In this document: positions 9,001 to 39,994 of the stretch, piece by piece | How the letters are laid out: every line of letters starts with the position of its first letter | Numbering within the stretch: position 1 is the first letter of the stretch | Assembly (NCBI GenBank): GCA_964016885.1 | Contig: OZ024742.1 | Coordinates: 376,092,001-376,156,000, forward strand | Direction: 5' to 3' | Source: Eledone cirrhosa | Lineage: Eukaryota | DNA length: 64,000 bases | Notes under the pieces: generated by a model | Told to the model about the DNA's origin: nothing | Databases searched by the model: none | What the model saw: only the letters and a program-made list of their open reading frames with translations | Program-made: the position numbers and the translations under genes

Positions 9001-12000
9001 AAACACCAGCTCTGGTTATATAAAACTAGATAGACAACTGGTATAGACACTAGTACCAACCTAGTTAACACCAGCTCTGGTTATATAAAACTAGATAGAG
9101 AACAACTGGTATTGACACTAGTACCAACCTAGTAAACACGAGCTCTGGTTATATACAACTAGATAGAGAACAACTGGTATTGACACTAGGACCAACCTAG
9201 TAAACACCAGCTCTGGTTATGTAAAACTAGATAGATAACTGGTATTGACACTAGTACCAACCTAGTAAACACCAGCCCTAGTAATATAAAACTAGATAGA
9301 GAACAACTGGTATTGACACTAGTACCAACCTAGTAAACACCAGCTCTGGTTATATAAAACTAGGGAGAGAACAACTGGTATTGACACTAGTACCAACCTA
9401 GTAAACACCAGCTCTGGTTATATAAAACTAGATGGAGAACAACTGGTATTGACACTAGTACCAACCTAGTAAACACCAGCTCTGGTTATATAAAACTAGA
9501 TGGAGAACAACTGGTATTGACACTAGTACCAACCTAGTAAACACCAGCTCTGGTTATATAAAACTAGATAGAGAACAATTGGTATTGACACTAGTACCAA
9601 CCCAGTAAACACCAGCTCTGGTTATATAAAACTTGATAGAGAACAACTGGTATTGAGACTAGTACCAACCTAGTAAACACCAGCTCTGGTTATATAAAAC
9701 TAGATGGAGAACAACTGGTATTGACACTAGTACCAACCTAGTAAACACCAGCTCTGGTTATATAAAACTAGATGGAGAACAACTGGTATTGACACTAGTA
9801 CCAACCTAGTAAACACCAGCCCTGGTTATATAAAACTAGGGAGAGAACAACTGGTATTGACACTAGTATCAATCTAGTAAACACCAGCTCTGGTAATATA
9901 AAACTAGATAGAGAACAACTGGTATTGACACTAGTACCAACCTAGTAAACACCAGCTCTGGTTATATAAAACTAGGGAGAGAATAACTGGTATTGACACT
10001 AGTACCAACCTAGTAAACACCAGCTCTGGTTATATAAAACTAGATAGACAACTGGTATTGCCACTAGTACCAACCTAGTAAACACCAGCTCTGGTTATAT
10101 AAAACTAGATAGACAACTGGTATTGCAACTAGTACCAACCTAGTAAACACCAGCTCTGGTTATATAAAACTAGATAGACAACTGGTATTGCAACTAGTAC
10201 CAACCTAGTAAACACCAGCTCTGGTTACACAAAACTAAATAGAGAACAACTGGTATTGACACTAGTACCAACCTAGTAAACACCAGCTCTGGTTATATAA
10301 AATTAGATAGTGAACAACTGGTATTGACACTAGTACCAACCTAGTAAACACCAGCTCTGGTAATATAAAACTAGATGGAGAACAACTGGTATTGACACTA
10401 GTACCAACCTGGTAAACACCAGCTCTGGTTATACAAAACTTTGATAGAGAACAACTGGTATTGACACTAGTACCAACCTAGTAAACACCAGCCCTGGTTA
10501 TATAAAACTAGATAGACAACTGGTATTGACACTACTACCAACCTAGTAAACACCAGCTCTGGTTATATAAAACTAGGGAGAGAACTGGTATTGAGACTAA
10601 TACCAACCTAGTAAACACCAGCTCTGGTTATATAAAACTAGATAGACAACTGGTATTGACACTAGTACCAACCTAGTAAACACCAGCTCTGGTTATATAA
10701 AACTAGATAGAGAACAACTGGTATTGACACTAGTACCAACCTAGTAAACACCAGCTCTGGTTATATAAAACTATATAGACAACTGGTATTGACACTAGTA
10801 TCAACCTAGTAAACACCAGCTCTGGTTATATAAAACTAGATAGAGAACAACTGGTATTGACACTAGTACCAACCTAGCAAACACCAGCCCTGGTTATATA
10901 AAACTAGATAGACAACTGGTATTGACACTAGTACCAACCTAGTAAACACCGGCTCTGGTTACATAAAACTAGGGAGAGAACTGGTATTGAGACTAATACC
11001 AACCTAGTAAACACCAGCTCTGGTTATATAAAACTAGATAGACAACTGGTATTGACACTAGTACCAACCTAGTAAACACCAGCTCTGGTTATATAAAACT
11101 AGATAGACAACTGGTATTGACAGTAGTACCAACCTAGTAAACACCAGCTCTGGTTATATAAAACTAGATAGAGAACAACTGGTATTGACCTAGTACCAAC
11201 CTAGTAAACACCAGCTCTGGTTATATAAAACTAGATAGAGAACAACTGGTATTGACACTAGTACCAACCTAGTAAACACCAGCTCTGGTTATATAAAACT
11301 AGATAGACAACTGGTATTGACACTAGTACCAACCTAGTAAACACCAGCTCTGGTTATATAAAACTCGATAGACAACTGGTATTGACACTAGTACCAACCT
11401 AGTAAATACCAGCTCTGGTTATATAAAACTAGATAGACAACTGGTATTGACACTAGTAACAACCTAGTAAACACCAGCTCTGGTTATATAAAACTAGATA
11501 GAGAACAACTGGTATTGACACTAGTACCAACCTAGTAAACACCAGCTCTGGTTATATAAAACTAGATGGAGAACAACTGGTATTGAGACTAGTACCAACC
11601 TAGTAAACACCAGCTCTGGTTATACAAATCTAGATAGAGCACAACTGGTATTGACACTAGTACCAACCTAGTAAACCCCAGCTCTGGTTATATAAAACTA
11701 GATAGAAAACAACTGGTATTGACACTAGTACCAATCTAGTAAACACCAGCACTGGTTATATAAAACTAGATGGAGAACAACTGGTATTGACACTAGTAAG
11801 AACCTAGTAAACACCAGCTCTGGTTATATAAAACTAGATAGAGAACAACTGGTATTGACACTAGTACCAACCTAGTAAACACCAGCTCTGGTTATATAAA
11901 ACTAGATAGACAACTGGTATTGACACTAGTACCAACCTAGTAAACACCAGCTCTGGTTATATAAAACTAGATAGAGAACAACTGGTATTGACACTAGTAC

Positions 12001-15000
12001 CAACCTAGTAAACACCAGCTCTGGTTATATAAAACTAGATAGACAACTGGTATTGACACCAGTACCAACCTAGTAAACACCAGCTCTGGTTATATAAAAC
12101 TAGATAGACAACTGGTATTGACACTAGTAACAACCTAGTAAACACCGGCTCTGGTTATATAAAACTAGATAGAGAACAACTGGTATTGACACTAGTAACA
12201 ACCTAGTAAACACCAGCCCTGGTTATATAAAACTAGATAGACAACTGGTATTGACACTAGTACCAACCTAGTAAACACCAGCTCTGGTTATATAAAACTA
12301 GGGAGAGAACTGGTATTGAGACTAATACCAACCTAGTAAACACCAGCTCTGGTTATATAAAACTAGATAGACAACTGGTATTGACACTAGTACCAACCTA
12401 GTAAACACCAGCTCTGGTTATATAAAACTAGATAGAGAACAACTGGTATTGACACTAGTACCAACCTAGTAAACACCAGCCCTGGTTATATAAAACTAGA
12501 TAGACAACTGGTATTGACACTAGTACCAACCTAGTAAACACCAGCTCTGGTTATATAAAACTAGGGAGAGAACTGGTATTGAGACTAATACCAACCTAGT
12601 AAACACCAGCTCTGGTTATATAAAACTAGATAGACAACTGGTATTGACACTAGTACCAACCTAGTAAACACCAGCTCTGGTTATATAAAACTAGATAGAG
12701 AACAACTGGTATTGACACTAGTACCAACCTAGTAAACACCAGCTCTGGTTATATAAAACTAGATAGAGAACAACTGGTATTGACACTAGTACCAACCTAG
12801 TAAACACCAGCTCTGGTTATATAAAACTAGATAGACAACTGGTATTGACACTAGTACCAACCTAGTAAACACCAGCTCTGGTTATATAAAACTAGATAGA
12901 CAACTGGTATTGACACTAGTACCAACCTAGTAAACACCAGCTCTGGTTATATAAAACTAGATAGACAACTGGTATTGACACTAGTAACAACCTAGTAAAC
13001 ACCAGCTCTGGTTATATAAAACTAGATAGAGAACAACTGGTATTGACACTAGTACCAACCTAGTAAACACCAGCTCTGGTTATATAAAACTAGATGGAGA
13101 ACAACTGGTATTGAGACTAGTACCAACCTAGTAAACACCAGCTCTGGTTATATAAAACTAGGGAGAGAACAACTGGTATTGACACTAGTACCAATCTAGT
13201 AAACACCAGCTCTGGTAATATAAAACTAGATAGAGAACAACTGGTATTGACACTAGTACCAACCTAGTAAACACCAGCTGAGGTTATACAAAACTAGATG
13301 GAGAACAACTGGTATTGACTCTAGTACCAACCTAGTAAACACCAGCTCTGGTTATATAAAACTAGATGGAGAACAATTGGTATTGACACTAGTACCAACC
13401 TAGTAAACACCAGCTGTGGTTATACAAAACTAGATAGAGAACAACTGGTATTGACACTAGTACCAACCTAGTAAACACCAGCTCTGGTAATATAAAACTA
13501 GATAGAGAACAACTGGTATTGAGACTAGTACCAACCTAGTAAACACCAGCTCTGGTTATATAAAACTAGATAGACAACTGGTATTGCCACTAGTACCAAC
13601 CTAGTAAACACCAGCTCTGGTTATATAAAACTAGATAGAGAACAACTGGTATTGAGACTAGTACCAACCTAGTAAACACCAGCTCTGGTTATATAAAACT
13701 AGATGGAGAACAACTGGTATTGAGACTAGTACCAACCTAGTAAACACCAGCTCTGGTTATACAAATCTAGATAGAGCACAACTGGTATTGACACTAGTAC
13801 CAACCTAGTAAACACCAGCTCTGGTTATATAAAACTAGATAGAAAACAACTGGTATTGACACTAGTACCAACCTAGTAAACACCAGCACTGGTTATATAA
13901 AACTAAATGGAGAACAACTGGTATTGACACTAGTAAGAACCTAGTAAACACCAGCTCTGGTTATATAAAACTAGATAGAGAACAACTGGTATTGACACTA
14001 GTACCAACCTAGTAAACACCAGCTCTGGTTACATAAAACTAGGGAGAGAACAACTGGTATTGACACTAGTACCAATCTAGTAAACACCAGCTCTGGTAAT
14101 ATAAAACTAGATAGACAACTGGTATTGACACTAGTACCAACCTAGTAAACACCAGCTCTGGTTATATAAAACTAGGGAGAGAACTGGTATTGAGACTAAT
14201 ACCAACCTAGTAAACACCAGCTCTGGTTATATAAAACTAGATAGAGAACAACTGGTATTGACACTAGTACCAACCTAGTAAACACCAGCTCTGGTTACAT
14301 AAAACTAGGGAGAGAACAACTGGTATTGACACTAGTACCAACCTAGTAAACACCAGCTCTGGTTATATAAAACTAGATAGACAACTGGTATTGACACTAG
14401 TACCAACCTAGTAAACACCAGCTCTGGTTACATAAAACTAGATAGAGAACAACTGGTATTGACACTAGTACCAACCTAGTAAACACCAGCCCTGGTTATA
14501 TAAAACTAGATAGACAACTGGTATTGACACTAGTACCAACCTAGTAAACACCAGCTCTGGTTATATAAAACTAGGGAGAGAACTGGTATTGAGACTAATA
14601 CCAACCTAGTAAACACCAGCTCTGGTTATATAAAACTAGATAGACAACTGGTATTGACACTAGTACCAACCTAGTAAACACCAGCTCTGGTTATATAAAA
14701 CTAGATAGAGAACAACTGGTATTGACACTAGTACCAACCTAGTAAACACCAGCTCTGGTTATATAAAACTAGATAGACAACTGGTATTGACACTAGTACC
14801 AACCTAGTAAACACCAGTTCTGGTTATATAAAACTAGATAGAGAACAACTGGTATTGACACTAGTACCAACCTAGTAAACACCAGCTCTGGTTATATAAA
14901 ACTAGATAGAGAACAACTGGTATTGACACTAGTACCAACCTAGTAAACACCAGCTCTGGTTATATAAAACTAGATGGAGAACAACTGGTATTGACACTAG

Positions 15001-15493
15001 TACCAACCTAGTAAACACCAGCTCTGGTTATATAAAACTAGATAGAGAACAACTGGTATTTACACTAGTAACAACCTAGTAAACACCAGCACTGGTTATA
15101 TAAAACTAGATGGAGAACAACTGGTATTGACACTAGTAAGAACCTAGTAAACACCAGCTCTGGTTATATAAAACTAGATAGAGAACAACTGGTATTGACA
15201 CTAGTACCAACCTAGTAAACACCAGCTCTGGTTATATAAAACTAGATAGAGAACAACTGGTATTGGCACTAGTACCAACCTAGTAAACACCAGCTCTGGT
15301 TATACAAAACTAGATAGAGAACAACTGGTATTGAGACTAGTACCAACCTAGTAAACACCAGCTCTGGCTATATAAAACTAGATGGAGAACAACTGGTATT
15401 GACACTAGTACCCATCTAGTAAACACTAGATAGAGAACAACTGGTATTAACACTCGTACCAACTTGGTAAAAACTAGCTCTGGTTATATAAAA
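1..15493. repeat. Satellite array, 68-bp unit with 65-bp variants (ACTGGTATTGACACTAGTACCAACCTAGTAAACACCAGCTCTGGTTATATAAAACTAGATAGAGAACA); runs off the left edge of the window
   Basis: Continuous head-to-tail units (unit starts at 1, 69, ...). Length variants are AGATAGACA versus AGATAGAGAACA. Units degenerate at about 15410-15493. No ORFs in the track. Confidence 0.98.
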
Positions 15494-17755: not shown

Positions 17756-20700
17756 ATTGGTACAGTACTAATAAACAGTTTTACTGTCCTTATAGTCAGC
17801 AGTATTGGTACAGTACTAATAAACAGTTTTAATGTCCTTATAGTCAGCAGTATTGGTACAGTACTAATAAACAGTTTTACTGTCATTATAGTCAACAGTA
17901 TTGGTACAGTACTAATAAACAGTTTTACTGTCATTGTAGTCAGCAGTATTGGTACAGTACTAATAAACAGTTTTACTGTCATTATAGTCAACAGTATTGG
18001 TACAGTACTAATAAACAGTTTTACTGTCATTATAGTCAGCAGTATTGGTACAGTACTAATAAACAGTTTTACTGTCATTATAGTCAGCAGTATTGGTACA
18101 GTACTAATAAACAGTTTTACTGTCATTATAGTCAGCAGTACAGTACTATTGGTACAGTACTAATAAACAGTTTTACTGTCATTATAGTCAGCAGTACAGT
18201 ACTATTGGTACAGTACTAATAAACAGTTTTACTGTCATTATAGTCAGCAGTACAGTACTATTGGTACAGTACTAATAAACAGTTTTACTGTCATTATAGT
18301 CAGCAGTACAGTACTATTGGTACAGTACTAATAAACAGTTTTACTGTCATTATAGTCAGCAGTACAGTACTATTGGTACAGTACTAATAAACAGTTTTAC
18401 TGTCATTATAGTCAGCAGTATTGGTACAGTACTAATAAACAGTTTTACTGTCATTATAGTCAGCAGTATTGGTACAGTACTAATAAACAGTTTTACTGTC
18501 ATTATAGTCAGCAGTACAGTACTATTGGTACAGTACTAATAAACAGTTTTACTGTCATTATAGTCAGCAGTACAGTACTATTGGTACAGTACTAATAAAC
18601 AGTTTTACTGTCATTATAGTCAGCAGTACAGTACTATTGGTACAGTACTAATAAACAGTTTTACTGTCATTATAGTCAGCAGTATTGGTACAGTACTAAT
18701 AAACAGTTTTACTGTCATTATAGTCAGCAGTATTGGTACAGTACTAATAAACAGTTTTACTGTCATTATAGTCAGCAGTACAGTACTATTGGTACAGTAC
18801 TAATAAACAGTTTTACTGTCATTATAGTCAGCAGTACAGTACTATTGGTACAGTACTAATAAACAGTTTTACTGTCATTATAGTCAGCAGTATTGGTACA
18901 GTACTAATAAACAGTTTTACTGTCATTATAGTCAGCAGTACAGTACTATTGGTACAGTACTAATAAACAGTTTTACTGTCATTATAGTCAGCAGTATTGG
19001 TACAGTACTAATAAACAGTTTTACTGTCATTATAGTCAGCAGTATTGGTACAGTACTAATAAACAGTTTTACTGTCATTATAGTCAGCAGTACAGTACTA
19101 TTGGTACAGTACTAATAAACAGTTTTACTGTCATTATAGTCAGCAGTATTGGTACAGTACTAATAAACAGTTTTACTGTCATTATAGTCAGCAGTACAGT
19201 ACTATTGGTACAGTACTAATAAACAGTTTTACTGTCATTATAGTCAGCAGTACAGTACTATTGGTACAGTACTAATAAACAGTTTTACTGTCATTATAGT
19301 CAGCAGTACAGTACTATTGGTACAGTACTAATAAACAGTTTTACTGTCATTATAGTCAGCAGTACAGTACTATTGGTACAGTACTAATAAACAGTTTTAC
19401 TGTCATTATAGTCAGCAGTACAGTACTATTGGTACAGTACTAATAAACAGTTTTACTGTCATTATAGTCAGCAGTACAGTACTATTGGTACAGTACTAAT
19501 AAACAGTTTTACTGTCATTATAGTCAGCAGTATTGGTACAGTACTAATAAACAGTTTTACTGTCATTATAGTCAGCAGTACAGTACTATTGGTACAGTAC
19601 TAATAAACAGTTTTACTGTCATTATAGTCAGCAGTACAGTACTATTGGTACAGTACTAATAAACAGTTTTACTGTCATTATAGTCAGCAGTACAGTACTA
19701 TTGGTACAGTACTAATAAACAGTTTTACTGTCATTATAGTCAGCAGTACAGTACTATTGGTACAGTACTAATAAACAGTTTTACTGTCATTATAGTCAGC
19801 AGTACAGTACTATTGGTACAGTACTAATAAACAGTTTTACTGTCATTATAGTCAGCAGTACAGTACTATTGGTACAGTACTAATAAACAGTTTTACTGTC
19901 ATTATAGTCAGCAGTACAGTACTATTGGTACAGTACTAATAAACAGTTTTACTGTCATTATAGTCAGCAGTATTGGTACAGTACTAATAAACAGTTTTAC
20001 TGTCATTATAGTCAGCAGTACAGTACTATTGGTACAGTACTAATAAACAGTTTTACTGTCATTATAGTCAGCAGTACAGTACTATTGGTACAGTACTAAT
20101 AAACAGTTTTACTGTCATTATAGTCAGCAGTACAGTACTATTGGTACAGTACTAATAAACAGTTTTACTGTCATTATAGTCAGCAGTACAGTACTATTGG
20201 TACAGTACTAATAAACAGTTTTACTGTCATTATAGTCAGCAGTACAGTACTATTGGTACAGTACTAATAAACAGTTTTACTGTCATTATAGTCAGCAGTA
20301 CAGTACTATTGGTACAGTACTAATAAACAGTTTTACTGTCATTATAGTCAGCAGTACAGTACTATTGGTACAGTACTAATAAACAGTTTTACTGTCATTA
20401 TAGTCAGCAGTACAGTACTATTGGTACAGTACTAATAAACAGTTTTACTGTCATTATAGTCAGCAGTACAGTACTATTGGTACAGTACTAAAAAACAGTT
20501 TTACTGTCATTATAGTCAGCAGTACAGTACTATTGGTACAGTACTAATAAACAGTTTTAGTGTCATTATAGTCAGCAGTACAGTACTATTGGTACAGTAC
20601 TAATAAACAGTTTTACTGTCATTATAGTCAGCAGTACAGTACTATTGGTACAGTACTAATAAACAGTTTTACTGTCATTATAGTCAGCAGTACAGTACTA

Positions 20701-23700
20701 TTGGTACAGTACTAATAAACAGTTTTACTGTCATTATAGTCAGCAGTACAGTACTATTGGTACAGTACTAATAAACAGTTTTACTGTCATTATAGTCAGC
20801 AGTACAGTACTATTGGTACAGTACTAATAAACAGTTTTACTGTCATTATAGTCAGCAGTACAGTACTATTGGTACAGTACTAATAAACAGTTTTACTGTC
20901 ATTATAGTCAGCAGTACAGTACTATTGGTACAGTACTAATAAACAGTTTTACTGTCATTATAGTCAGCAGTACAGTACTATTGGTACAGTACTAATAAAC
21001 AGTTTTACTGTCATTATAGTCAGCAGTACAGTACTATTGGTACAGTACTAATAAACAGTTTTACTGTCATTATAGTCAGCAGTACAGTACTATTGGTACA
21101 GTACTAATAAACAGTTTTACTGTCATTATAGTCAGCAGTACAGTACTATTGGTACAGTACTAATAAACAGTTTTACTGTCATTATAGTCAGCAGTACAGT
21201 ACTATTGGTACAGTACTAATAAACAGTTTTACTGTCATTATAGTCAGCAGTACAGTACTATTGGTACAGTACTAATAAACAGTTTTACTGTCATTATAGT
21301 CAGCAGTACAGTACTATTGGTACAGTACTAATAAACAGTTTTACTGTCATTATAGTCAGCAGTACAGTACTATTGGTACAGTACTAATAAACAGTTTTAC
21401 TGTCATTATAGTCAGCAGTACAGTACTATTGGTACAGTACTAATAAACAGTTTTACTGTCATTATAGTCAGCAGTACAGTACTATTGGTACAGTACTAAT
21501 AAACAGTTTTACTGTCATTATAGTCAGCAGTACAGTACTATTGGTACAGTACTAATAAACAGTTTTACTGTCATTATAGTCAGCAGTACAGTACTATTGG
21601 TACAGTACTAATAAACAGTTTTACTGTCATTATAGTCAGCAGTACAGTACTATTGGTACAGTACTAATAAACAGTTTTACTGTCATTATAGTCAGCAGTA
21701 CAGTACTATTGGTACAGTACTAATAAACAGTTTTACTGTCATTATAGTCAGCAGTACAGTACTATTGGTACAGTACTAATAAACAGTTTTACTGTCATTA
21801 TAGTCAGCAGTACAGTACTATTGGTACAGTACTAATAAACAGTTTTACTGTCATTATAGTCAGCAGTACAGTACTATTGGTACAGTACTAATAAACAGTT
21901 TTACTGTCATTATAGTCAGCAGTACAGTACTATTGGTACAGTACTAATAAACAGTTTTACTGTCATTATAGTCAGCAGTACAGTACTATTGGTACAGTAC
22001 TAATAAACAGTTTTACTGTCATTATAGTCAGCAGTACAGTACTATTGGTACAGTACTAATAAACAGTTTTACTGTCATTATAGTCAGCAGTACAGTACTA
22101 TTGGTACAGTACTAATAAACAGTTTTACTGTCATTATAGTCAGCAGTACAGTACTATTGGTACAGTACTAATAAACAGTTTTACTGTCATTATAGTCAGC
22201 AGTACAGTACTATTGGTACAGTACTAATAAACAGTTTTACTGTCATTATAGTCAGCAGTACAGTACTATTGGTACAGTACTAATAAACAGTTTTACTGTC
22301 ATTATAGTCAGCAGTACAGTACTATTGGTACAGTACTAATAAACAGTTTTACTGTCATTATAGTCAGCAGTACAGTACTATTGGTACAGTACTAATAAAC
22401 AGTTTTACTGTCATTATAGTCAGCAGTACAGTACTATTGGTACAGTACTAATAAACAGTTTTACTGTCATTATAGTCAGCAGTACAGTACTATTGGTACA
22501 GTACTAATAAACAGTTTTACTGTCATTATAGTCAGCAGTACAGTACTATTGGTACAGTACTAATAAACAGTTTTACTGTCATTATAGTCAGCAGTACAGT
22601 ACTATTGGTACAGTACTAATAAACAGTTTTACTGTCATTATAGTCAGCAGTACAGTACTATTGGTACAGTACTAATAAACAGTTTTACTGTCATTATAGT
22701 CAGCAGTACAGTACTATTGGTACAGTACTAATAAACAGTTTTACTGTCATTATAGTCAGCAGTACAGTACTATTGGTACAGTACTAATAAACAGTTTTAC
22801 TGTCATTATAGTCAGCAGTACAGTACTATTGGTACAGTACTAATAAACAGTTTTACTGTCATTATAGTCAGCAGTACAGTACTATTGGTACAGTACTAAT
22901 AAACAGTTTTACTGTCATTATAGTCAGCAGTACAGTACTATTGGTACAGTACTAATAAACAGTTTTACTGTCATTATAGTCAGCAGTACAGTACTATTGG
23001 TACAGTACTAATAAACAGTTTTACTGTCATTATAGTCAGCAGTACAGTACTATTGGTACAGTACTAATAAACAGTTTTACTGTCATTATAGTCAGCAGTA
23101 CAGTACTATTGGTACAGTACTAATAAACAGTTTTACTGTCATTATAGTCAGCAGTACAGTACTATTGGTACAGTACTAATAAACAGTTTTACTGTCATTA
23201 TAGTCAGCAGTATTGGTACAGTACTAATAAACAGTTTTACTGTCATTATAGTCAGCAGTACAGTACTATTGGTACAGTACTAATAAACAGTTTTACTGTC
23301 ATTATAGTCAGCAGTACAGTACTATTGGTACAGTACTAATAAACAGTTTTACTGTCATTATAGTCAGCAGTACAGTACTATTGGTACAGTACTAATAAAC
23401 AGTTTTACTGTCATTATAGTCAGCAGTACAGTACTATTGGTACAGTACTAATAAACAGTTTTACTGTCATTATAGTCAGCAGTACAGTACTATTGGTACA
23501 GTACTAATAAACAGTTTTACTGTCATTATAGTCAGCAGTATTGGTACAGTACTAATAAACAGTTTTACTGTCATTATAGTCAGCAGTACAGTACTATTGG
23601 TACAGTACTAATAAACAGTTTTACTGTCATTATAGTCAGCAGTACAGTACTATTGGTACAGTACTAATAAACAGTTTTACTGTCATTATAGTCAGCAGTA

Positions 23701-24488
23701 CAGTACTATTGGTACAGTACTAATAAACAGTTTTACTGTCATTATAGTCAGCAGTACAGTACTATTGGTACAGTACTAATAAACAGTTTTACTGTCATTA
23801 TAGTCAGCAGTACAGTACTATTGGTACAGTACTAATAAACAGTTTTACTGTCATTATAGTCAGCAGTACAGTACTATTGGTACAGTACTAATAAACAGTT
23901 TTACTGTCATTATAGTCAGCAGTACAGTACTATTGGTACAGTACTAATAAACAGTTTTACTGTCATTATAGTCAGCAGTATTGGTACAGTACTAATAAAC
24001 AGTTTTACTGTCATTATAGTCAGCAGTACAGTACTATTGGTACAGTACTAATAAACAGTTTTACTGTCATTATAGTCAGCAGTACAGTACTATTGGTACA
24101 GTACTAATAAACAGTTTTACTGTCATTATAGTCAGCAGTACAGTACTATTGGTACAGTACTAATAAACAGTTTTACTGTCATTATAGTCAGCAGTACAGT
24201 ACTATTGGTACAGTACTAATAAACAGTTTTACTGTCATTATAGTCAGCAGTACAGTACTATTGGTACAGTACTAATAAACAGTTTTACTGTCATTATAGT
24301 CAGCAGTATTGGTACAGTACTAATAAACAGTTTTACTGTCATTATAGTCAGCAGTACAGTACTATTGGTACAGTACTAATAAACAGTTTTACTGTCATTA
24401 TAGTCAGCAGTACAGTACTATTGGTACAGTACTAATAAACAGTTTTACTGTCATTATAGTCAGCAGTACAGTACTATTGGTACAGTAA
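17756..24488. repeat. Satellite array with 48-bp and 56-bp units (TATTGGTACAGTACTAATAAACAGTTTTACTGTCATTATAGTCAGCAG, with or without TACAGTAC)
   Basis: Near-perfect tandem units. The 48-bp form dominates the left edge and the 56-bp form the centre. Lies in AAGAB intron 3. Confidence 0.98.
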
Positions 24489-30134: not shown

Positions 30135-30274
30135 ACAACCTATGAGTTTCAAATTATCAAAAATTTAGAGTGATTTAGTAAAATCACTTTCTCATTATTA
30201 AGCTGGTTGTAGAAACATAATTTCACAAAGGTATTAATATAAAACTATGATGGAAGGTTTTTAGATAAATATAT

Positions 30275-30907
30275 ATGGATGTGTAACAGTAATATACATG
30301 AACGACAAAGCATAAAGGAATTGAGAGAGAGACTGAGCATAAGAGGAATCAAATGCTGCGTGCAGGAGAGGCGGTTACGCTGGTATGGACATGTGATGCG
30401 TATGAAGGATGACAGCTGCATAAAAAGGGGCAGAGCACTAGAAGTTGATGGAAACCGCGGAGTGGGGAGACCCAAGATGACTTGGGATGAGGTGATAAAA
30501 GCCGACCTTACCCAACTACACCTCTCAAAGTCAATGACACACGACCGTGACTTCTGGCGTCACGCAGTAATACAGGGTACCCGACCTCCCATGGGTACAT
30601 GCTGAAGCATATAAACAATATGCCCCCACTCCCCCCACCGCAAGGTGGTCGTGGAGGTGCCACGGCAAAAAAGCACCCAGCCCACACTGTAAAGTGGACG
30701 TGTAGGCGCCACGAAAAAGCACCCAGCACTCACTGTAAATGAGGTTGGTGTTAGGAAGGGCATCCAGCTGTAGAAATCAAGCCAGATCAGTTCCTGTATG
30801 AGCAAGGCATGGTCAGCCGACCAGACACTGCACACAACAGGACAACCCGTCTAACCCATGCTAGCGTGGAAGAACGGACGTAAAACGGTGATGATGATGA
30901 TGATGAT
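30275..30907 (+). mobile_element. 5'-truncated RTE-clade LINE inserted in the TTAA-CCC MITE
   Basis: ERRLRWYGHVMR...GRPKMTW followed by a 3' UTR and (GAT)n tail. MITE-like sequence lies on both sides (30126-30270, 30908-30980). Confidence 0.9.
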
Positions 30908-31240: not shown

Positions 31241-31330
31241 ATCCACCCATCAATCCAGCCACCCAGTCAACCATCTATCTATCCAGCCACCCGGTCATCT
31301 ATCTATCCAGCCACCCAGTTATCCATCCAA
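31241..31330. repeat. 24-bp ATCC/AGCC-type repeat (ATCCATCTATCCAGCCACCCAGTC); continues at 36647-36728 and 39659-39760
   Basis: The same unit flanks both Tx1-like elements. Confidence 0.9.
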
Positions 31331-34300
31331 CCAGAACAACAACAACAATAATGACAACAAGAACAACAACAGCAACAATGATAACAACAACACCAACAAC
31401 AACAACAATGATAACAACAACACCACCAACAACAACAGCAACACGAACAACTCCACGAACAAGGAAAAGATTTCTTTTGCTCAAACCGTCTAAAAGACGG
31501 AACTGTTCACATACCTTGACATTTCCAATGCTAGGGAAATGTTAAGCGATGCAAATCAGTACGTAACTTTTGGTGAGAGTAGTGCTTTCAGCATCACTTC
31601 TCCTCAACAGTTACGCAGAGAAACTGTTCTAAAAACAGTAATTTTTAGGACGGTTTCAAATGTGTCGAAAAAACCAGTTCAATTATCCCAAAACGATATT
31701 GAACTGGTTCTGAAGAATTCCATGAAGGATATTGCCGTCATCCAAAAAGGGAAACTTTTTGGAAGCATTTCAGTGTTGTTGAAAGACCAAAAAATATTCT
31801 GTATCACCGATTGTGTCCCCTCTTTACACCTTTTTCCCCACATATATGGAAAAAAGAACTCAAAAAATAAAAATTTTGAACATTGCACCAAATGTAAACA
31901 TCTGGTGGATTCTAACTGGCTTCATCGAAGATACCATCATTTCGGTGGGAAAGTCCTCCAGAGGCACAATCAATGGTACAAGCATGGAAGTTCTGGTCCA
32001 AATGAGGCCAGAACGGATAGCTAAAATACCCCGTGTGCCTCTGGATGGAATTTCACACATAAACATCTCTGTTGAGAGTAGGCAGCCTTCATGTTACCAC
32101 TGTTTAAGCAGTTAACTAAAAAAAAAAAAGAGGCACTACTGCCAACACCCAAAACAACAACACAACCACCACCACTACCACCACCACCACCACAACAACA
32201 TGCAAACACAACCAAAACAAGAACAAAAAACCAACCTGCAAGCACAGTCCCACCCAACCCCACTCCACCTAAAACCACTGCAAAATCACCCACAAACACA
32301 ACAGCTCCCCAAAACATACCCCTTCCAAATAACACAGACACCACAACGGACGAGGCCCCCACATCATCACCAAGTGATGATGAGGGAGAGCCTCTCCGTT
32401 CGAAAAGAAAGAAGAAAAGACACCACAAGAACAAAAAAAAACAACAAACATCACTACAAACATACAACCACCAACACAAACAACACAAACATTACAAACA
32501 AAAACCCCCCGTCCCGAAAACAAAACCACGACATCACTCCAAACACAAACACCTACAACAAAACGAAAGCTCCTACAAGAACAACAGACAAAAACCACTG
32601 CAACACAACAAGAACATTACACATACATAAACAGTAAAAACAAAACTTTAATGGAGGTCATCTCCAACGACCCTTCGGTTTTCACCGAAGGGAAAACTTT
32701 TTCGAACTGTGTAGACAAACCTAATTTAAAGATGATTAGGGTCTCTACGGACACCTATAAGTCTTTAAAGGAAAACTTTCCTAAGGACGTGGGTAATCCT
32801 TGTGTTAAACCCATTAACCGCGTCCTTTTAAAAAGTTTCCCCACCCTCACCCCAGACACCCCCACCCTACCAAACATCTCCGTCCCCACCCCGCCGGATA
32901 CCACCACCCACCCAGACAACTCCTCTAACACCCCCATGGAAACCGTGCAGCCTGATCTCCGGGAGACGAAGAGGTGAGTGTTTTCTTCACTTCTTTTAAC
33001 TTTTTAGAACCAACATGGCCAATATAAGAGTTGGGTGTGTGAATGTACGCGGCCTGGGGATGCCCTGGAAACAGGGCAAACTCTTAAATGACCTCAGGTC
33101 ACACAGTATGGATGTAGTAGCCATTTGCGAGTCCAGGATCCACAGCGAGCGACAGTTGGCCCCCATCTTCGATGACTTTGAGATCTACGCATCTCTCTGT
33201 CAGCCGGGGGGTGGGGGCAGGGTTGCTGTTTTGCTGCGGAAACACCTGGGCTTCGTAACACAGACGGTACATCTGGACCCGGAGGGTTGACTGGTGGTCC
33301 TAGAGGTTGACGATAGTGAAGGTGGAGCCTTCAGGCTGGTGGCCGCATATGCCCCATCCGGGACACCGCGGCCAGACTTCTTCAAACGTCTCGAGACTTT
33401 TCTGAGAACGTCCCGCTCCTTGCTTTTAGTTGAGGACTGGAATGGATTCCTAGATGTACGTTGGGACTATGTGGGAGCATGTCCCGATAAAGGGGGGTGT
33501 AACAGCCTCAAACAGTTAATCGGCCAATTTGACCTGGGCGATAGATATCGACTAGATTTTCCGACTGTGCCACTGTGGACGTGGACTAATCGCAGCGGAA
33601 CATCTAGATCGTACCTAGATAGGGTTCTAGTTAGAAATAAGGATAGGGACATGTTAAGCTGTCCACAAATGTTCATGGTTGCCTATTCAGATCACAAACT
33701 AATGACCTGCATGGTCAACCTTGATAGAACCCATAGACAAGGACCCGGCTACTGGAAGCTGAACTTGTCGTTACTGACATGCAAAGTCTACAGTAGACGG
33801 ATTAGCACTTTAGTTAAACAGCACTTGACAGGGGCCATTGTCAACAACAGATGGTGGTACTCTCTCAAGAGGGCAGTTAGATTAGACTCGTTAGTTTTTA
33901 GTAAAGAATTAGCGTTAGATAGAAATAGAACCGAGAAAGAATTGGTAGATAAAGTAGAAGAGGCAATTAGAAGTGGCAACGTAGCCAGCGTGCTAGCAAC
34001 GAGAACGGCCTTGGACCAGTTCTTCAACGCAAAGCATGAGGGCTGCGTTGTCAGAAACAAAATACGTGCTCTAGGAAACGAGGGAGCTAAAGCTGTTAGC
34101 TGGGCCCGAGTGACGGAGGCAAAAAGTGGCAACAAGTCCACGATTCGGTCTTTGAAGGACCAAAACGGACGCGTGATATGTGAGCCGAAGAAGATGTGTG
34201 CGGCCTTTCAGCGGCACTTTGCTCAGCTGTTCGGGCAGGGCGGCGCGGCGGGAGGGGCTATGGATTTCGGTCCATACCTCGACGGCCTACTGCGACTCTC

Positions 34301-36646
34301 AGACAGCGAGGCGAATTCTGCGGAAAGCCGATTTCAGCCGCTGAGATAGGGGACGCGTTGAGCCAATGCGGCAAACGCAAATCTCCAGGTCTCGATGGCC
34401 TACCCTACAAATTATACGTAGCAATGCCGGACTTATTCTCCGGTCTCCTGGAAGCGGTCCACTGCAACTGGCGACAGAACGGGAGAATTCCCAGTTCTGT
34501 GACCGGGGGCGTAGTCACACTAGTCAGGAAGGACGAGAATAAGGGGGATGACATAGGCAACTTCTGGCCCATAACTCTGCTAAACACAGAGTTACAGATT
34601 TTGGCCAAGGTGTTGGCAAAGAGGCTGGCGCTTGTCATCGAGAACCTGGTGGGAGAAGCGCAGACATGCGCAATCCCGACCAGGTCCATACACGACAACC
34701 TCCACCTCATGCGATACATCATAGAGAGGGTAGGGTGGGGCCCTGATCAACTTGGATCAGTCTAAGGCTTTCGATAGGGTTGACCATCGTTACCTGGATG
34801 CGGTGCTCGAGGCGGCAGGCTTCGGACCCGTGTTCAGGGGCTGGATTGCTGCAATGCATAACAGCAACATCTGCTCAAGAGTTAAGGTGAACGGCTACCT
34901 CTCGGAGCCGTTCCATATCACGCGATCCATTCGACAGGGATGCCCTCTCTCCTCCCTTCTGTACATACTGACTCTCGAGCCACTACTGCGGAAGTTGGAG
35001 CTATTGCAGGGCATCCCTCTGGAACCGCAACTGTGAAAAGTGTCGTCGGCCTACGCCGACAACGTGACAGTAATGGTGTCGAGCACCTCGCAAATCGAGG
35101 AGATTGGCACCTTACTGGAGGAATACGAAAGGTTCACAGGGGAGAAGCTGAACCGGGACAAGTCCATCGGTTTGCAACTCGGATCGTGGAGAGGCAAAGC
35201 GATGCCTTCCGATGGCGTCGTCGGACGCTGGACGGAAGGACCGGTAAAGCTGCTCGGGGTCTGGTCTGGTCCTGACCTCCAGGTGGAGAAGAACTGGAAC
35301 GAGGTGTCAGCCAAGGTGTTTGCACTCACCCAGAAGTGGGCCGAGTGCAAACTATCAATGAAAGGTCGAGCGGAGGTGGTGAACACTTTTATAGCGTCCG
35401 CCATCTACTGCTTGACCGTCGTGCCTTGTCCAGCCAAAACGCTCGGCAAAATAGAGTACGCGCTCTTCCAATTACTTTGGTGAGAAGTTCCATCTGCTGC
35501 CAACGCCCTTCCAACGGAGGGCTGGGGATGCCGTGGCTGACGATGCGCAAACACACGCTCAGGCTGCGGAATCTCTACGTATTCCTCACCGGACAACCGG
35601 TGTGGGCCCCGTTCGTGAGGCGAGCCTTCCCACGACTCATCTCGCTGACCGAGCTGCAGTCCTGGGTCAAGCAAAACCGAGGAAAATGGGCGACTGGCAC
35701 ATCGAATGTGCTCAGGCGCTCACAGCCCTCTGGCAGGCGGACCCGGCGATCAGTGGAGACTCCACTTCGTCATTCTATAGAGGGTTGATCCGCAGCAAGT
35801 GCGACAACGTGCTCGGTGAAACTCTGGGCGTAGAGGAAGACGAACTGGCCAGTCTGTTCGGTAGGACCTTCCGCCCGGGACCAATGGACAACTTCCAAAA
35901 GTTCCTGGCCTGGCAGTGCTACCAAGGAGCTCTACCAGTTCAAGACAAGCTCTACAGACATCGGCGCCCGGGCAGGGACCCTGCAAAAAAGATCTGTCCG
36001 AGGTGCGTACGAGACAAAGAAACCGTCGCGCACACATTCATACACTGCCCGAGCGTCACCGACCTGGGGGCCTATGTAGAACGACTATTGTCGCGGGTGG
36101 GACTAATCTAGTTGACCACCGAGTCCATTGTCATGATCAAACCGCCACCCTCCTTCAAAAAAGAAGGAGAGGTGATTTTCCTTTGTGTGATAGCTATGGC
36201 GAAAGAGGTTGTATGGTGGACAAGGTTGAAAGGGCTGAGGTCAGACACCTTTCTCTCCGGCCAACAACTGATTCTTTTTTTCAAATACCACTTTGGAAGA
36301 AGAATCAGGATGGAGAGAGAGGTGCTGTACCCCAGCAAGTTTTATGAAAGGTGGGTGAAAGTGGCGAGAATGGCCCGAGTGAATGGGCCTTCTCTCTATA
36401 TCAGCCTGTAGGTTGAGGAAAAAGAGGAGGAGAAGTACAAACTCTTCGTACTCCTGGAGATGAGGGTTGCACATTTTTTTTTCGGGGGTATGTGTTACCC
36501 ATATGAAATGTCTCCCCCTATTGGGGAAAATCGATTAATTTTTAAATTGCATTTGTGATAATATTTTACACGTTTTTATTATATGTAAACTTCCCCCTTT
36601 GTATTTGTCCCCTTCTTTTGTGCCCCTGTGGCTAATAAAGAAACAT
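31331..36646 (+). mobile_element. Near-full-length, decayed Tx1/L1-clade LINE (copy 1)
   Basis: (AAC)n-rich 5' region. Frameshifted ORF1 with a CYHC knuckle remnant at about 32090. ORF2 from 33015 has an APE domain (NVRGL, YLDR, SDH, GPGYWKLN), RT (KSPGLDGLP, PITLLNTE, DQSKAFDRVDH, RQGCPLS, YADN) and a C-terminal CPRC..ET..H..C. AATAAA at 36634. Confidence 0.93.
33015..36411 (+). pseudogene. Tx1-like ORF2 (APE endonuclease, reverse transcriptase, zinc finger), disrupted
   Basis: Several stops and frameshifts across consecutive ORF fragments; catalytic YADD reads YADN. Confidence 0.9.
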
Positions 36647-36728
36647 ATCTATCCAGTCACCCAGACATCCATCCATCTATCCAGCCACCCAGTCATCCAT
36701 CTATCCAGCCACCCAGTGTCCATCTATC

Positions 36729-39658
36729 TGAACTTGTCCTTACCGGCAAGTAAAGCTTACAGGGACCGGATTAGTACGTTAGTTAAGGAGCGGTTGACTG
36801 GAGCGATCATCAACAGCAGGTGGTGGGTATCTCTAAAGAGAGAGATTATATTAGTCTCGATAGAATTTAGTAAGGTTCTAGCTGCGGATAGGAATAGGAA
36901 GGAAAGGGAGCTAATAGATAGAGTAGAAGAGGCAATTAGAAGCGGCGACGTGGCCAGAGTGCTAGCGTCGAGAACGGCTTTGAGCCAGTTTTTCGAAGCA
37001 CGAAGGCTGCGTTGTCCGAAGTAAAATACGTGCCCTAGGGAACGAGGGGACCAAAGCTGTTAGCTGGGCCCGCGTGTCAGAAGCCAAGAGTGGAACTAAA
37101 TCCACCATCCGGTCTTTGCGAGACCAGGATGGATGGGCGATCCTTGAACCTAAGCAGATGTGTGAGGCCTTTCAAAAGCACTTTGCCGGATTGTTCGGAA
37201 GGGGTGGGGAGCCGGTTGGGGATGTGGACTTCGGTCCATACCCCGACGGCCTGCCGCGTCTCTCGGACAGGGAGGCGAAGTCCTGCGAGGAGCCGATTTC
37301 AGCCGCTGAGATAGAGGACGTGATGAGCCAATGCGGCAAACGCAAATCCCGGGTCTCGATGGTCTTCCATACGAACTGTATCTAGCTATGCCGGACTTGT
37401 TCCCCGATCTCCTCGAGGCGGTCTACTGCAACTGGCAACAGAACGGGAGAATTCCCTGTACTGTGACCAAGGGCGTAGTCACGCTAGTGAGGAAGGACGA
37501 GAACAAGGGGGACAAAGTAAGTAACTTCAGGCCCATAACTCTGCTAAATACAGAGTTACAGATTTTGGCCAAAGTGCTAGCAAAGAGGTTGGCGCTTGTC
37601 GTGGGCAACCTGGTGGGAGATGCGCAGACATGTGCTATCCCGTCCAGGTCCATCCATGACAACCTCCACCTCATGCGATACATCATAGAGAGGGTTGGGA
37701 ACGAACCCGGCTTTGGTGGGGCTCTGATCAACTTGGATCAATCTAAGGCGTTCGATAGGGTCGACCATGGTTACCTGGATGCGGTGCTAGCGGCGGCAGG
37801 CTTCGGACCCGTTTTCAGGGGCTGGATCACTGCTATGCACAGCAGCCGCATCTGCTCTAGAGTCAAGGTGAACGGTTACCTCTCGGAGCCGTTCGAAATC
37901 GCGCGGTCCATCTGACAAGGGTGCCCTCTCTCCTCCCTTCTGTATGTATTGACTCTTGAGCCACTACTGCGGAAGTTGGAGTTGTTGCAGGGCATCCCTT
38001 TGGAACCGGGATTGCGGAAAGCGGTGTCGGCCTACGCCGATGACGTGACAGTAATGGTGTCGACGGCCTCCGAAATCGGGGCGGTCGGCACCTTACTGGA
38101 GGAGTACGAAAGGTTCACAGGGGCTAAGCTGAACCGGGACAAGTCAATCGGTTTGCAACTCGGCACGTGGAGGGGCAAACCGATGCCCTCCGATGGCGTC
38201 GTCGGACGCTGGACGGAGGGCCCGGTGAAGTTGCTCGGGATCTGGTTCGGACCAGACCTCCAGGTGGAGAAGAACTGGGCGGAGGTTACGAACAGGGTGT
38301 TTGCACTGACCCAGAAGTGGGCCAGTTGTAAACTATCCCTGAAATGTCGGGCGGAGGTGGCGAACACCTATATAGCGTCCGTCATCTACTACCGCCTGAC
38401 CGTCGTGCCTTGCCCAAGGGAAACCCTCGCCAAAATGGAGCGCGCGCTCTTCCAATTCCTTTGGAAGAGGCGGACTCCTATGGTGAGGAGATCCATCTGC
38501 TGTCAACACCCTTCGAAAGGAGGGCTGGGGATGCCGTGGCTAATGATGCGTAAACACGCATTAAGGCTACGGCACCTCCACGTATTCCTCACCGGTCAAC
38601 CGGTGTGGGCCTCGTTTGTGAGACGAACCTTTCCCAGACTCGTCTCCGAGCTGCAATCCTGGGTCAAGCAAAGACCGAGAAAACTGGGCGCCTGGCACAC
38701 TGAGTGTGCCCAGGCACTCACCGTCCTCTGGCAGGCGGATCCGGTTATCAGTGGAGACTCCACCGCAACATTCTATAGAGGGCTGGTACGCAGCAGTTGC
38801 GACGACGCCCTCGGAGAAGCCCTAGACATGGAGTAAGACGAACTGGCCAGCCTGTTCGGTAGGACATTCAGCCCGGGACCTATGGACAACTTCCAGAAGT
38901 CCCTGGCCTGGCAGTGCTACTGAGGGGCTCTACCCGTTCGAGAAAAGCTCTACAGACACGGGTGCCCGGGTAGGGACCCCGCCAAAAAGATCTGTCCCAG
39001 ATGCGTGTGCAACGAGGAAACCGTTGCACACGCATTGGTACACTGCTCGGGCGTAGCCGATCTGTGGGGCTATGTCGAACAACTGCTGTCAAGGGTGGGA
39101 CCGATCCGGTTGACCACCGAGTCTAATGTAACGACTAAGCCGCCTCCCCCCTTCAAAAATGAAGGAGAGGCGGTGTTTCTGTGCGTAATAGCCATGGTGA
39201 AAGAGGTTGTATGGTGGACGCGTCTGAAAGGACTGAGGTCAGGCACCTTTCTCTCTGGCCAACAACTGGTCCGTTTCTTCCGATATCATTTTGGAAGAAG
39301 GATCAGGATGGGGAGAGAGGTGCTCCACCCCAGTCGTTTTTATGAAAGATGGGTGAAAGTGGCGAGAATGGCCCGTGTGAATGGGCCTTCTCTTTACATA
39401 AGCCTGTAGGTGGAAAAGAGAAAGGAACGAGGCAGCACCCTCTCTCTGTGCTCCTGAGGAGAAGGGGTTGCACATTTTTTTCGGGGGTGTGTGTGACCCC
39501 CCCCCCCCAAACGCCCCCTCCCTATTGAGGACTTATTGTTAAGTTTATTGTTAATTTTATATTTGTTATTTATTTTCTTTACTCGCCTTTTCATGTAAAC
39601 TCCCCCCATTGTACTTGTCCCACTTTTTGATGCCCTGGTGGCAAATAAAAAGAAACAT
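36729..39658 (+). mobile_element. 5'-truncated Tx1/L1-clade LINE (copy 2, diverged sister of copy 1)
   Basis: Starts at LNLSL, just after the APE domain. RT has YADD at about 38032. Same C-terminus ARVNGPSLYISL. AATAAA precedes GAAACAT. Carries stops and frameshifts. Confidence 0.93.
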
Positions 39659-39994
39659 ATCTATCCAGTCACCCAGCCATCCAGCCAGTCATCCATCTAT
39701 CCAGCCACCCAGTCATCCATCTATCCAGCCACCCAGTCATCCATCTATCCAGCCAGCCAAACATTGCTTTAAAAAGGATCCTATAGTGAGTATGATTAAA
39801 ATCTGTCATGGAGTTTACAATGCTAACCTTTAGCAGGGAAAATGGCCCTAAAACACATGTTGTTGTGTTGTAGTTCCATGAACATATATTAGAGAACCCT
39901 TTAAAAAGCCCTACCTACTGTTTCACTATCTCCTGTAGGTCGTGTGTTACACCATCTTAAGACTTGCTATGGTTTACATAACTGACTGCTCATG

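What the first reader, a model, noticed from the sequence alone, without database searches (positions are those of the whole stretch)
31241..39760. Candidate sequence-specific Tx1-like LINE family: two diverged copies in one 24-bp repeat with an identical target-like 3' junction
Seen: two related but clearly diverged elements (31331-36646 and 36729-39658) lie in the same orientation inside a short array of ATCCATCTATCCAGCCACCCAGTC. Both 5' junctions fall in the ...TCCATC(TATC) part of the unit. Neither has a poly(A) run; both end AATAAA(AA)GAAACAT and continue as ATCTATCCAGTCACCCAG. That AGTC variant occurs only right after the two elements, while the other full units read ATCCAGCCACCC. Known: Tx1-clade elements include target-specific families (Keno in U2, Mutsu in 5S, Dewa in tRNA arrays, Kibi and Koshi in microsatellites). 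Inference: this is a family specific for (ATCC/AGCC)n repeats, and the roughly 18-nt target-like 3' sequence may be carried by the element RNA and anneal to the nicked target in place of a poly(A) tail. I do not recall this target being described, but cannot verify that.
Basis: partly seen in the sequence, partly recalled or inferred. Interest (0 to 1): 0.75.

Follow-up and report, generated by a model that had tools for sequence, protein, structure and literature searches.

The report
LINEs targeting ATCT microsatellites, stacked
These are two broken copies of a very abundant jumping-gene group, likely from an octopus, whose copies sit at ATCT (GATA) repeats across the genome, likely because their enzyme cuts there; the shared 18-base 'tail' occurs only at this locus and is likely duplicated host DNA, not part of the element.

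Summary
Observation confirmed, interpretation half right. Both elements are 5'-truncated, decayed copies of two subfamilies (83% identical) of an endonuclease/RT LINE that scores closer to Xenopus Tx1L than to human L1. They are target-specific, but the target is (ATCT)n, not the 24-bp unit. ATCT follows 5,461 of 6,042 exact family-A 3' ends and 58 of 64 family-B ends. 165 of 216 5' junctions also lie in ATCT repeats of the same orientation. Target-site duplications (6-24 bp) begin at the first base after the element, and the target reads ATCT|AT. The 24-bp core occurs only in this window, and only these two copies carry the 18-mer, so an RNA-borne 18-nt tail is refuted. The identical flank is best read as two insertions at one nick with an unusually long (~81 bp) duplication (inferred). 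No poly(A) in 260 ends; a short read-through AUCU annealing step remains possible but untested. Sister elements end in (ATT)n. Microsatellite-targeting Tx1 elements are known (Kibi, Koshi); I found no paper on an ATCT target. The scan has already noted this system elsewhere in this genome and in another genome.

The parts
31241..31326 (+). 5' part of a local minisatellite; holds two ATCT|ATCT sites (31273-31280, 31297-31304) that match the family's target
31327..36646 (+). Element 1: 5'-truncated LINE of family A (ORF1/5' variant here called A2), decayed
   Evidence: 92-96% best identity to other copies over ORF2 and 3' UTR; 5' junction from full-length relatives
31327..32977 (+). ORF1 remnant (Asn-rich N-terminus; a CCHC knuckle is visible in an intact relative), with stops and frameshifts
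33015..36411 (+). ORF2 of element 1 (APE endonuclease, RT, C-terminal zinc motif); 5 tblastn segments with 4 stops
36634..36646 (+). 3' terminus of element 1: AATAAA followed by 7 bases, no poly(A)
   Evidence: 6,042 exact genomic matches of the family-A end
36647..36727 (+). 81-bp spacer of host minisatellite starting with the 18-mer; near copy of the flank after element 2 (79 of 81 bases, 2 gaps); inferred long target duplication
36728..39658 (+). Element 2: 5'-truncated LINE of family B (starts just after the endonuclease domain; ORF2 stop at 39409; 3 segments, 3 stops)
   Evidence: about 97% best identity to other B copies
39659..39759 (+). 3' part of the minisatellite, starting with the same 18-mer

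Best explanation
The two elements are independent insertions of two subfamilies of a Tx1-like LINE whose copies sit genome-wide at 5'-ATCT|ATCT-3' in (ATCT)n/(GATA)n repeats, likely because their endonuclease nicks the GATA strand there, and the shared 18-mer is likely host minisatellite duplicated when the second copy landed at the same nick. Shown: target consensus on both sides of the junction, fixed orientation, 6-24-bp duplications starting at the first base after the element, no poly(A), frequent head-to-tail stacking of different subfamilies. Inferred: endonuclease read-out of the target (the four bases before the nick are conserved although RNA cannot pair with them); target-primed reverse transcription from a fixed 3' end; element ends (..AYAT, ..ATCT) resemble the bases before the nick, so each insertion would leave a usable site for the next. 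Also inferred: element 1 came first at an ATCT|ATCTATCC unit, and element 2 entered at its 3' junction with an ~81-bp duplication.
For: 3' side: 5,461 of 6,042 family-A ends and 58 of 64 family-B ends are followed by ATCT; 3,564 more sister ends read GAAATCTATCT. 5' side: an ATCT-phase hexamer lies within 25 nt upstream in 165 of 216 junctions, against 21 of 216 at 122-150 nt, 1 of 216 for the reverse complement and 1 of 208 windows inside the element. TSDs with non-repeat letters: 51 of 216 against a mean of 2.6 (max 7) in 20 mismatched pairings; 37 of 216 against 3.2 by a second rule. In the 42 exact ones, positions -4 to -1 are A 34, T 35, C 34, T 41 and +1, +2 are A 42, T 42. Another element's 3' end lies within 150 bp upstream in 56 of 216; poly(A) in 0 of 260. 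3 of the 42 TSDs start exactly at another element's end (L086, L203, L258), as described for tandem SINEU-3 in PMC4494074. A natural copy has open ORF1 and ORF2 with EN-RT-zf. phmmer gives 309 bits to Tx1L and 180 to human L1 ORF2p. The spacer aligns better to the post-element-2 flank (score 63.5) than to the pre-element-1 array (49).
Against: No biochemistry and no RNA: the nick is inferred from junctions. 51 of 216 5' junctions lack the ATCT hexamer; some are internal deletions or alignment ends, which I did not remove. About 10% of 3' ends are not followed by ATCT (327 read ATA/ATG/ATT). The junction sample is enriched on purpose for imperfect 3' flanks, so logo positions +3 and +7 are biased. 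An 81-bp duplication lies far outside the measured range; the anchored search looked only 45 bp upstream, but a 150-bp search found no long duplication in non-repetitive flanks. Inside a minisatellite the true TSDs of both window copies cannot be delimited. The tree had no L1 outgroup and no Kibi, Koshi or Keno sequences.
Confidence: 0.85

Rival explanations
1. One reading: a family specific for the 24-bp (ATCC/AGCC) unit whose RNA carries an 18-nt target-like tail in place of poly(A).
For: The same 18 bases follow both window copies; no poly(A) in 260 ends.
Against: The unit's core exists only in this window. Only 5 ends in the genome share even the first 10 flank bases, and 3 of them diverge after that. 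Flanks elsewhere copy the local host sequence from base +1.
Confidence: 0.02
2. The ATCT repeats are a tail made by the element (as the 3' microsatellites of RTE or L2 elements), insertion is unspecific, and stacking is passive.
For: Most copies end in ATCT runs of variable length; RTE-clade LINEs end in 3' microsatellites (PMC13295347 passages).
Against: ATCT stands upstream of truncated copies too (165 of 216), is part of the duplicated target and is conserved before the nick. Copies in degenerate sites (e.g. L212, L217, L230, L232) have no ATCT added.
Confidence: 0.05
3. Same target specificity, but the shared 18-mer comes from a pre-existing ~80-bp higher-order repeat, or from unequal crossing-over between two alleles each carrying one element, not from a long duplication. 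This rival concerns only the local history.
For: Measured TSDs are 6-24 bp; element-plus-flank tandem duplications occur in this genome (L082); element 2 also fits a 6-7-bp TSD.
Against: Both insertions would have had to pick the only AGTC units. The last spacer unit resembles the downstream units rather than the upstream ones. With the short TSD, element 2's site has C at -1 where 41 of 42 targets have T.
Confidence: 0.3
4. Old tandem duplication of one insertion with its flank.
For: Same orientation and same flank.
Against: Each copy is closer to dispersed copies of its own subfamily (92-97%) than to its neighbour (83%).
Confidence: 0.01

Closest known systems
Kibi (TC)n and Koshi (TTC)n of teleosts, and crocodilian Tx1 families in (TTCC)n/(TTTC)n (PMC4494074 passages and section 15; PMC3812793 passages)
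   Same: APE-type LINEs related to Tx1 that insert into microsatellites.
   Different: Target here is (ATCT)n; the host is likely an octopod; over 9,600 exact 3' ends counted; several subfamilies stack head to tail. Relationship to Kibi/Koshi not tested (no sequences available).
Tx1L of Xenopus laevis (YTX2_XENLA, P0234; PMC1950540 passages)
   Same: EN-RT ORF2, 36% identity over the RT region; site-specific endonuclease shown biochemically for Tx1L.
   Different: Tx1L targets the Tx1D transposon; it lies in a separate strongly supported clade in my unrooted tree; the endonuclease hairpin loop here is shorter.
SINEU-3 tandem insertions (PMC4494074 passage)
   Same: Sequential insertions sandwiching one target duplication.
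   Different: There the target is a Mariner element and the stated TSD is 16 bp; the window's spacer is 81 bp.
SART1Bm and R1Bm, R1 clade (PMC7265360 passages)
   Same: Repeat-targeting LINEs in which short target-like RNA is proposed to anneal to the nicked strand.
   Different: Other clade; SART1 has and needs poly(A). Annealing here is untested.

Membership tests
L1/Tx1 group of non-LTR retrotransposons | Two ORFs; ORF2 with N-terminal APE endonuclease, RT and C-terminal zinc motif | tested here: met
   Intact natural copy: PF03372, PF00078, PF13966; catalytic endonuclease motifs align with Tx1L; ORF1 has a C-x2-C-x4-H-x4-C knuckle by eye but no Pfam hit
L1/Tx1 group of non-LTR retrotransposons | 5' truncation, fixed 3' end, target-site duplications | tested here: met
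Tx1 clade | RT closer to Tx1L than to L1 or R2 | tested here: met
   phmmer 309 bits (Tx1L) vs 180 (human L1) vs about 80 (R2) for the same query
Tx1 clade | Monophyly with named Tx1 families in a rooted RT tree | tested here: inconclusive
   34-row tree without L1 outgroup: the two families group with an Argonauta protein and unnamed proteins, apart from Tx1L and the fish/turtle rows
Microsatellite-targeting LINEs (Kibi/Koshi type) | More than 20% of flanks in one repeat type (criterion of PMC4494074) | tested here: met
   90% of 3' ends, 76% of 5' junctions
Kibi / Koshi | (TC)n or (TTC)n target | tested here: not met
   Target is ATCT|AT
Kibi / Koshi | Phylogenetic placement in the Kibi/Koshi lineage | not testable with these tools
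   No named Kibi or Koshi sequence was returned
Site-specific LINEs | Endonuclease cuts the target in vitro | not testable with these tools
   needs bench work

The most novel reading that the evidence does not exclude
A cephalopod Tx1-like radiation has replaced poly(A) priming. Its poly(A) signal sits 7-9 bases before the end, so transcripts run into the flanking (AUCU)n, which pairs with the nicked GATA strand and gives a base-precise, tail-less junction that rebuilds the target. Subfamilies therefore pile up on one another, and close sister lineages have switched to (ATT)n: a natural series for mapping how a LINE endonuclease changes its target.
Probability: 0.35. Interest if true: 0.62.

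Novelty: new variant of a known kind. Interest (0 to 1): 0.42.

Why it matters
It adds (ATCT)n/(GATA)n to the short list of microsatellite targets of endonuclease-encoding LINEs and places such targeting in a likely mollusc, at very high copy number and with intact young copies. With (ATT)n-ending sisters in the same genome, endonuclease swaps could test how target choice evolves. In practice, GATA microsatellite markers in this genome often sit next to LINE ends.

Tried and rejected
RNA test: the run search listed no RNA holder, so transcript ends were not examined. Contigs of runs of unrecorded kind laid on the junction and on the whole locus gave nothing usable inside the repeats. One contig joint 31202 to 39828 appeared in three runs of one sample with only 25 letters on the short side; too weak to call an empty allele. 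Test for RNA-templated letters at the 3' junction: 42 of 51 anchored TSDs match from base +1; the 9 others differ in both directions (3 with the 3' copy nearer the consensus, 3 with the 5' copy nearer, 3 ambiguous), so no templated addition is seen. This cannot exclude annealing, because annealed RNA is not copied. The search for long duplications in unique flanks found only minisatellite or ATCT matches. A Pfam methyltransferase hit on an ORF1 fragment (E 0.002, below cut-off) was rejected as noise. No named Kibi, Koshi, Keno or L1 protein was obtained for a rooted tree. The Tx1L endonuclease paper PMC85248 is not held, and the supplements of PMC4494074 could not be read. No structure was predicted.

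Full report
Observation. The sequence shows two same-strand elements in a short array of a 24-bp unit. They align over 2.9 kb at 82.7%. Both end AATAAA(AA)GAAACAT without poly(A) and are followed by the same 18 bases, whose AGTC variant occurs only there (2 of 9 unit matches). Element 1 starts at 31327 inside the Asn-rich start of ORF1; element 2 starts at 36728. Both have stops and frameshifts.

What the elements are. A natural tandem pair elsewhere in the genome (L164/L165, 5,846 bp each, 3 differences) has open frames of 643 and 1,150 codons stop to stop. ORF2 carries endonuclease, RT and zf-RVT domains; ORF1 shows a CCHC knuckle by eye. With the same query, phmmer gives 309 bits to Xenopus Tx1L, 180 to human L1 ORF2p and about 80 to R2. 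The nearest named protein is from Argonauta hians (63-67% identity), which makes an octopod host likely (inference). A 34-row RT tree groups both families with that protein and with unnamed proteins, apart from Tx1L and the fish/turtle rows; it has no L1 outgroup, so clade membership is not formally shown. Element 1 is 92-96% identical to the best family-A copies over ORF2 and the 3' UTR, and element 2 about 97% to family-B copies. They are therefore separate insertions, not a duplication.

The target. The exact family-A end occurs 6,042 times, 5,461 of them followed by ATCT. The family-B end occurs 64 times, 58 followed by ATCT. A further 3,564 sister ends read GAAATCTATCT. By contrast, the core of the 24-bp unit occurs 4 times, all in the window, and end plus ATCTATCCAG 5 times, of which the three outside the window diverge at once. 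I collected 260 distinct 3' ends (200 A, 60 B) from fetched loci; 216 had a mappable 5' boundary. This is a small part of all copies, and the A set was enriched on purpose for imperfect 3' flanks. An ATCT-phase hexamer lies within 25 nt upstream in 165 of 216, against 21 of 216 further upstream and 1 of 216 for the reverse complement. Full-length copies nearly always start in ATCT too.

Duplications. Using non-repeat letters as anchors, 51 of 216 insertions show a target duplication, against a mean of 2.6 (max 7) for mismatched pairs; a second rule gave 37 against 3.2. 42 match from the first base after the element, are 6-24 bp long without microhomology (7-26 with), and define the target: -4 A 34, -3 T 35, -2 C 34, -1 T 41, +1 A 42, +2 T 42 of 42. 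Where the host site is degenerate, the 3' copy has the host's letters (L212, L217, L230, L232). So ATCT is target, not tail, and no RNA-borne sequence is added. Conservation on the upstream side of the nick, where RNA cannot pair with the primer strand, points to recognition by the endonuclease (inference; site-specific nicking is shown for Tx1L-EN in PMC1950540, passages read). None of 260 ends has poly(A), and 56 of 216 copies have another element's end within 150 bp upstream.

Why the window shows the same 18-mer twice. The 5' array holds two ATCT|ATCT sites. The 81-bp spacer matches the flank after element 2 at 79 of 81 bases with two gaps, better than it matches the upstream array. Three of 42 TSDs elsewhere start exactly at a previous element's end, the TSD sandwich described for SINEU-3 (PMC4494074). 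The simplest reading is that element 2 entered at element 1's 3' junction and duplicated about 81 bp. Against it, no duplication that long was found in unique flanks, so a pre-existing higher-order repeat or unequal crossing-over remains possible (about 0.3).

Mechanism. Shown: target, orientation, duplications, tail-less fixed end, stacking. Inferred: nick on the GATA strand, target-primed reverse transcription, and regeneration of a target by the element's own last bases. Untested: AATAAA lies 7-9 nt before the end; cleavage usually falls 10-30 nt after that signal (recalled), i.e. inside the flank, so a short read-through AUCU could anneal to the primer strand, as proposed for SART1Bm and R1Bm (PMC7265360 passages). 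Annealed RNA is not copied, so junctions cannot decide this.

Prior knowledge. Microsatellite-targeting Tx1 families are known for (TC)n, (TTC)n, (TTCC)n and (TTTC)n (PMC4494074: passages and section 15; its Fig. 3 target labels and supplements were not visible and may list further targets). A 2013 review lists ACAY, AC, TC, TTC and TAA targets (PMC3812793 passages). An Octopus vulgaris annotation counts 13 recently active L1-Tx1 families and has no occurrence of 'target' (PMC13282606 passages); PMC9115989 has no occurrence of 'Tx1'. Nine literature searches (listings only, apart from the papers named) showed no ATCT/GATA-targeting LINE. Repbase, Dfam and subscription journals were not searchable. 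After I had stated my reading, the scan's notes showed the same system in this genome and another and (ATT)n sisters; I saw four diverged relatives ending in (ATT)n in my own loci.

Verdict. A real target-specific LINE group with a target that I could not find in print, but of a known kind and already noted by the scan. The 24-bp target and the 18-nt RNA tail are not real family features. Interest 0.42.

Noticed in passing
L080, L092, L125, L317 (C-terminal ORF2 matches of 43-63% protein identity): Diverged relatives with the same kind of 3' end are followed by (ATT)n instead of (ATCT)n; at least three (L080, L092, L317) lie antisense to the ATCT-type element beside them.
   Followed up: partly
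window 31327-33010 vs L165: Element 1 is only 74-77% identical to the intact family-A copy over most of ORF1 but about 95% over the first 2 kb of ORF2, so family A has at least two 5' UTR/ORF1 modules on one ORF2. A GGTGAGT splice-donor-like motif sits at 32973 at the end of ORF1; the switch point was not mapped exactly.
   Followed up: partly
L206, L222, L229, L232, L259, L317: Family-A copies truncated at nearly the same point, 378-383 bp from the 3' end in a T-rich stretch (8 of 157 copies), mostly 99% identical to the intact copy: a truncation hot spot or a short non-autonomous derivative.
   Followed up: no
L164/L165 (G000:C1:63.92 Mb): Head-to-tail full-length copies differing at 3 of 5,846 bases with both frames open, separated by ATCT repeats: very recent activity or tandem duplication.
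   Followed up: partly
P0004-P0100: Many unnamed proteins from ENA assemblies are about 50% identical in RT, closer than any vertebrate Tx1; their hosts and targets are unknown.
   Followed up: no
window 31202 / 39828: One contig per run of a single sample joins these positions, skipping the whole array; only 25 letters on the short side.
   Followed up: no
window 1-15426 and 18091-24487: Long, homogeneous 68-bp (230 copies) and 56-bp (116 copies) satellites, plus many shorter minisatellites.
   Followed up: no
window 30243-30605: ORF fragment that resembles the C-terminus of an RTE-clade LINE (recalled motif, not tested).
   Followed up: no
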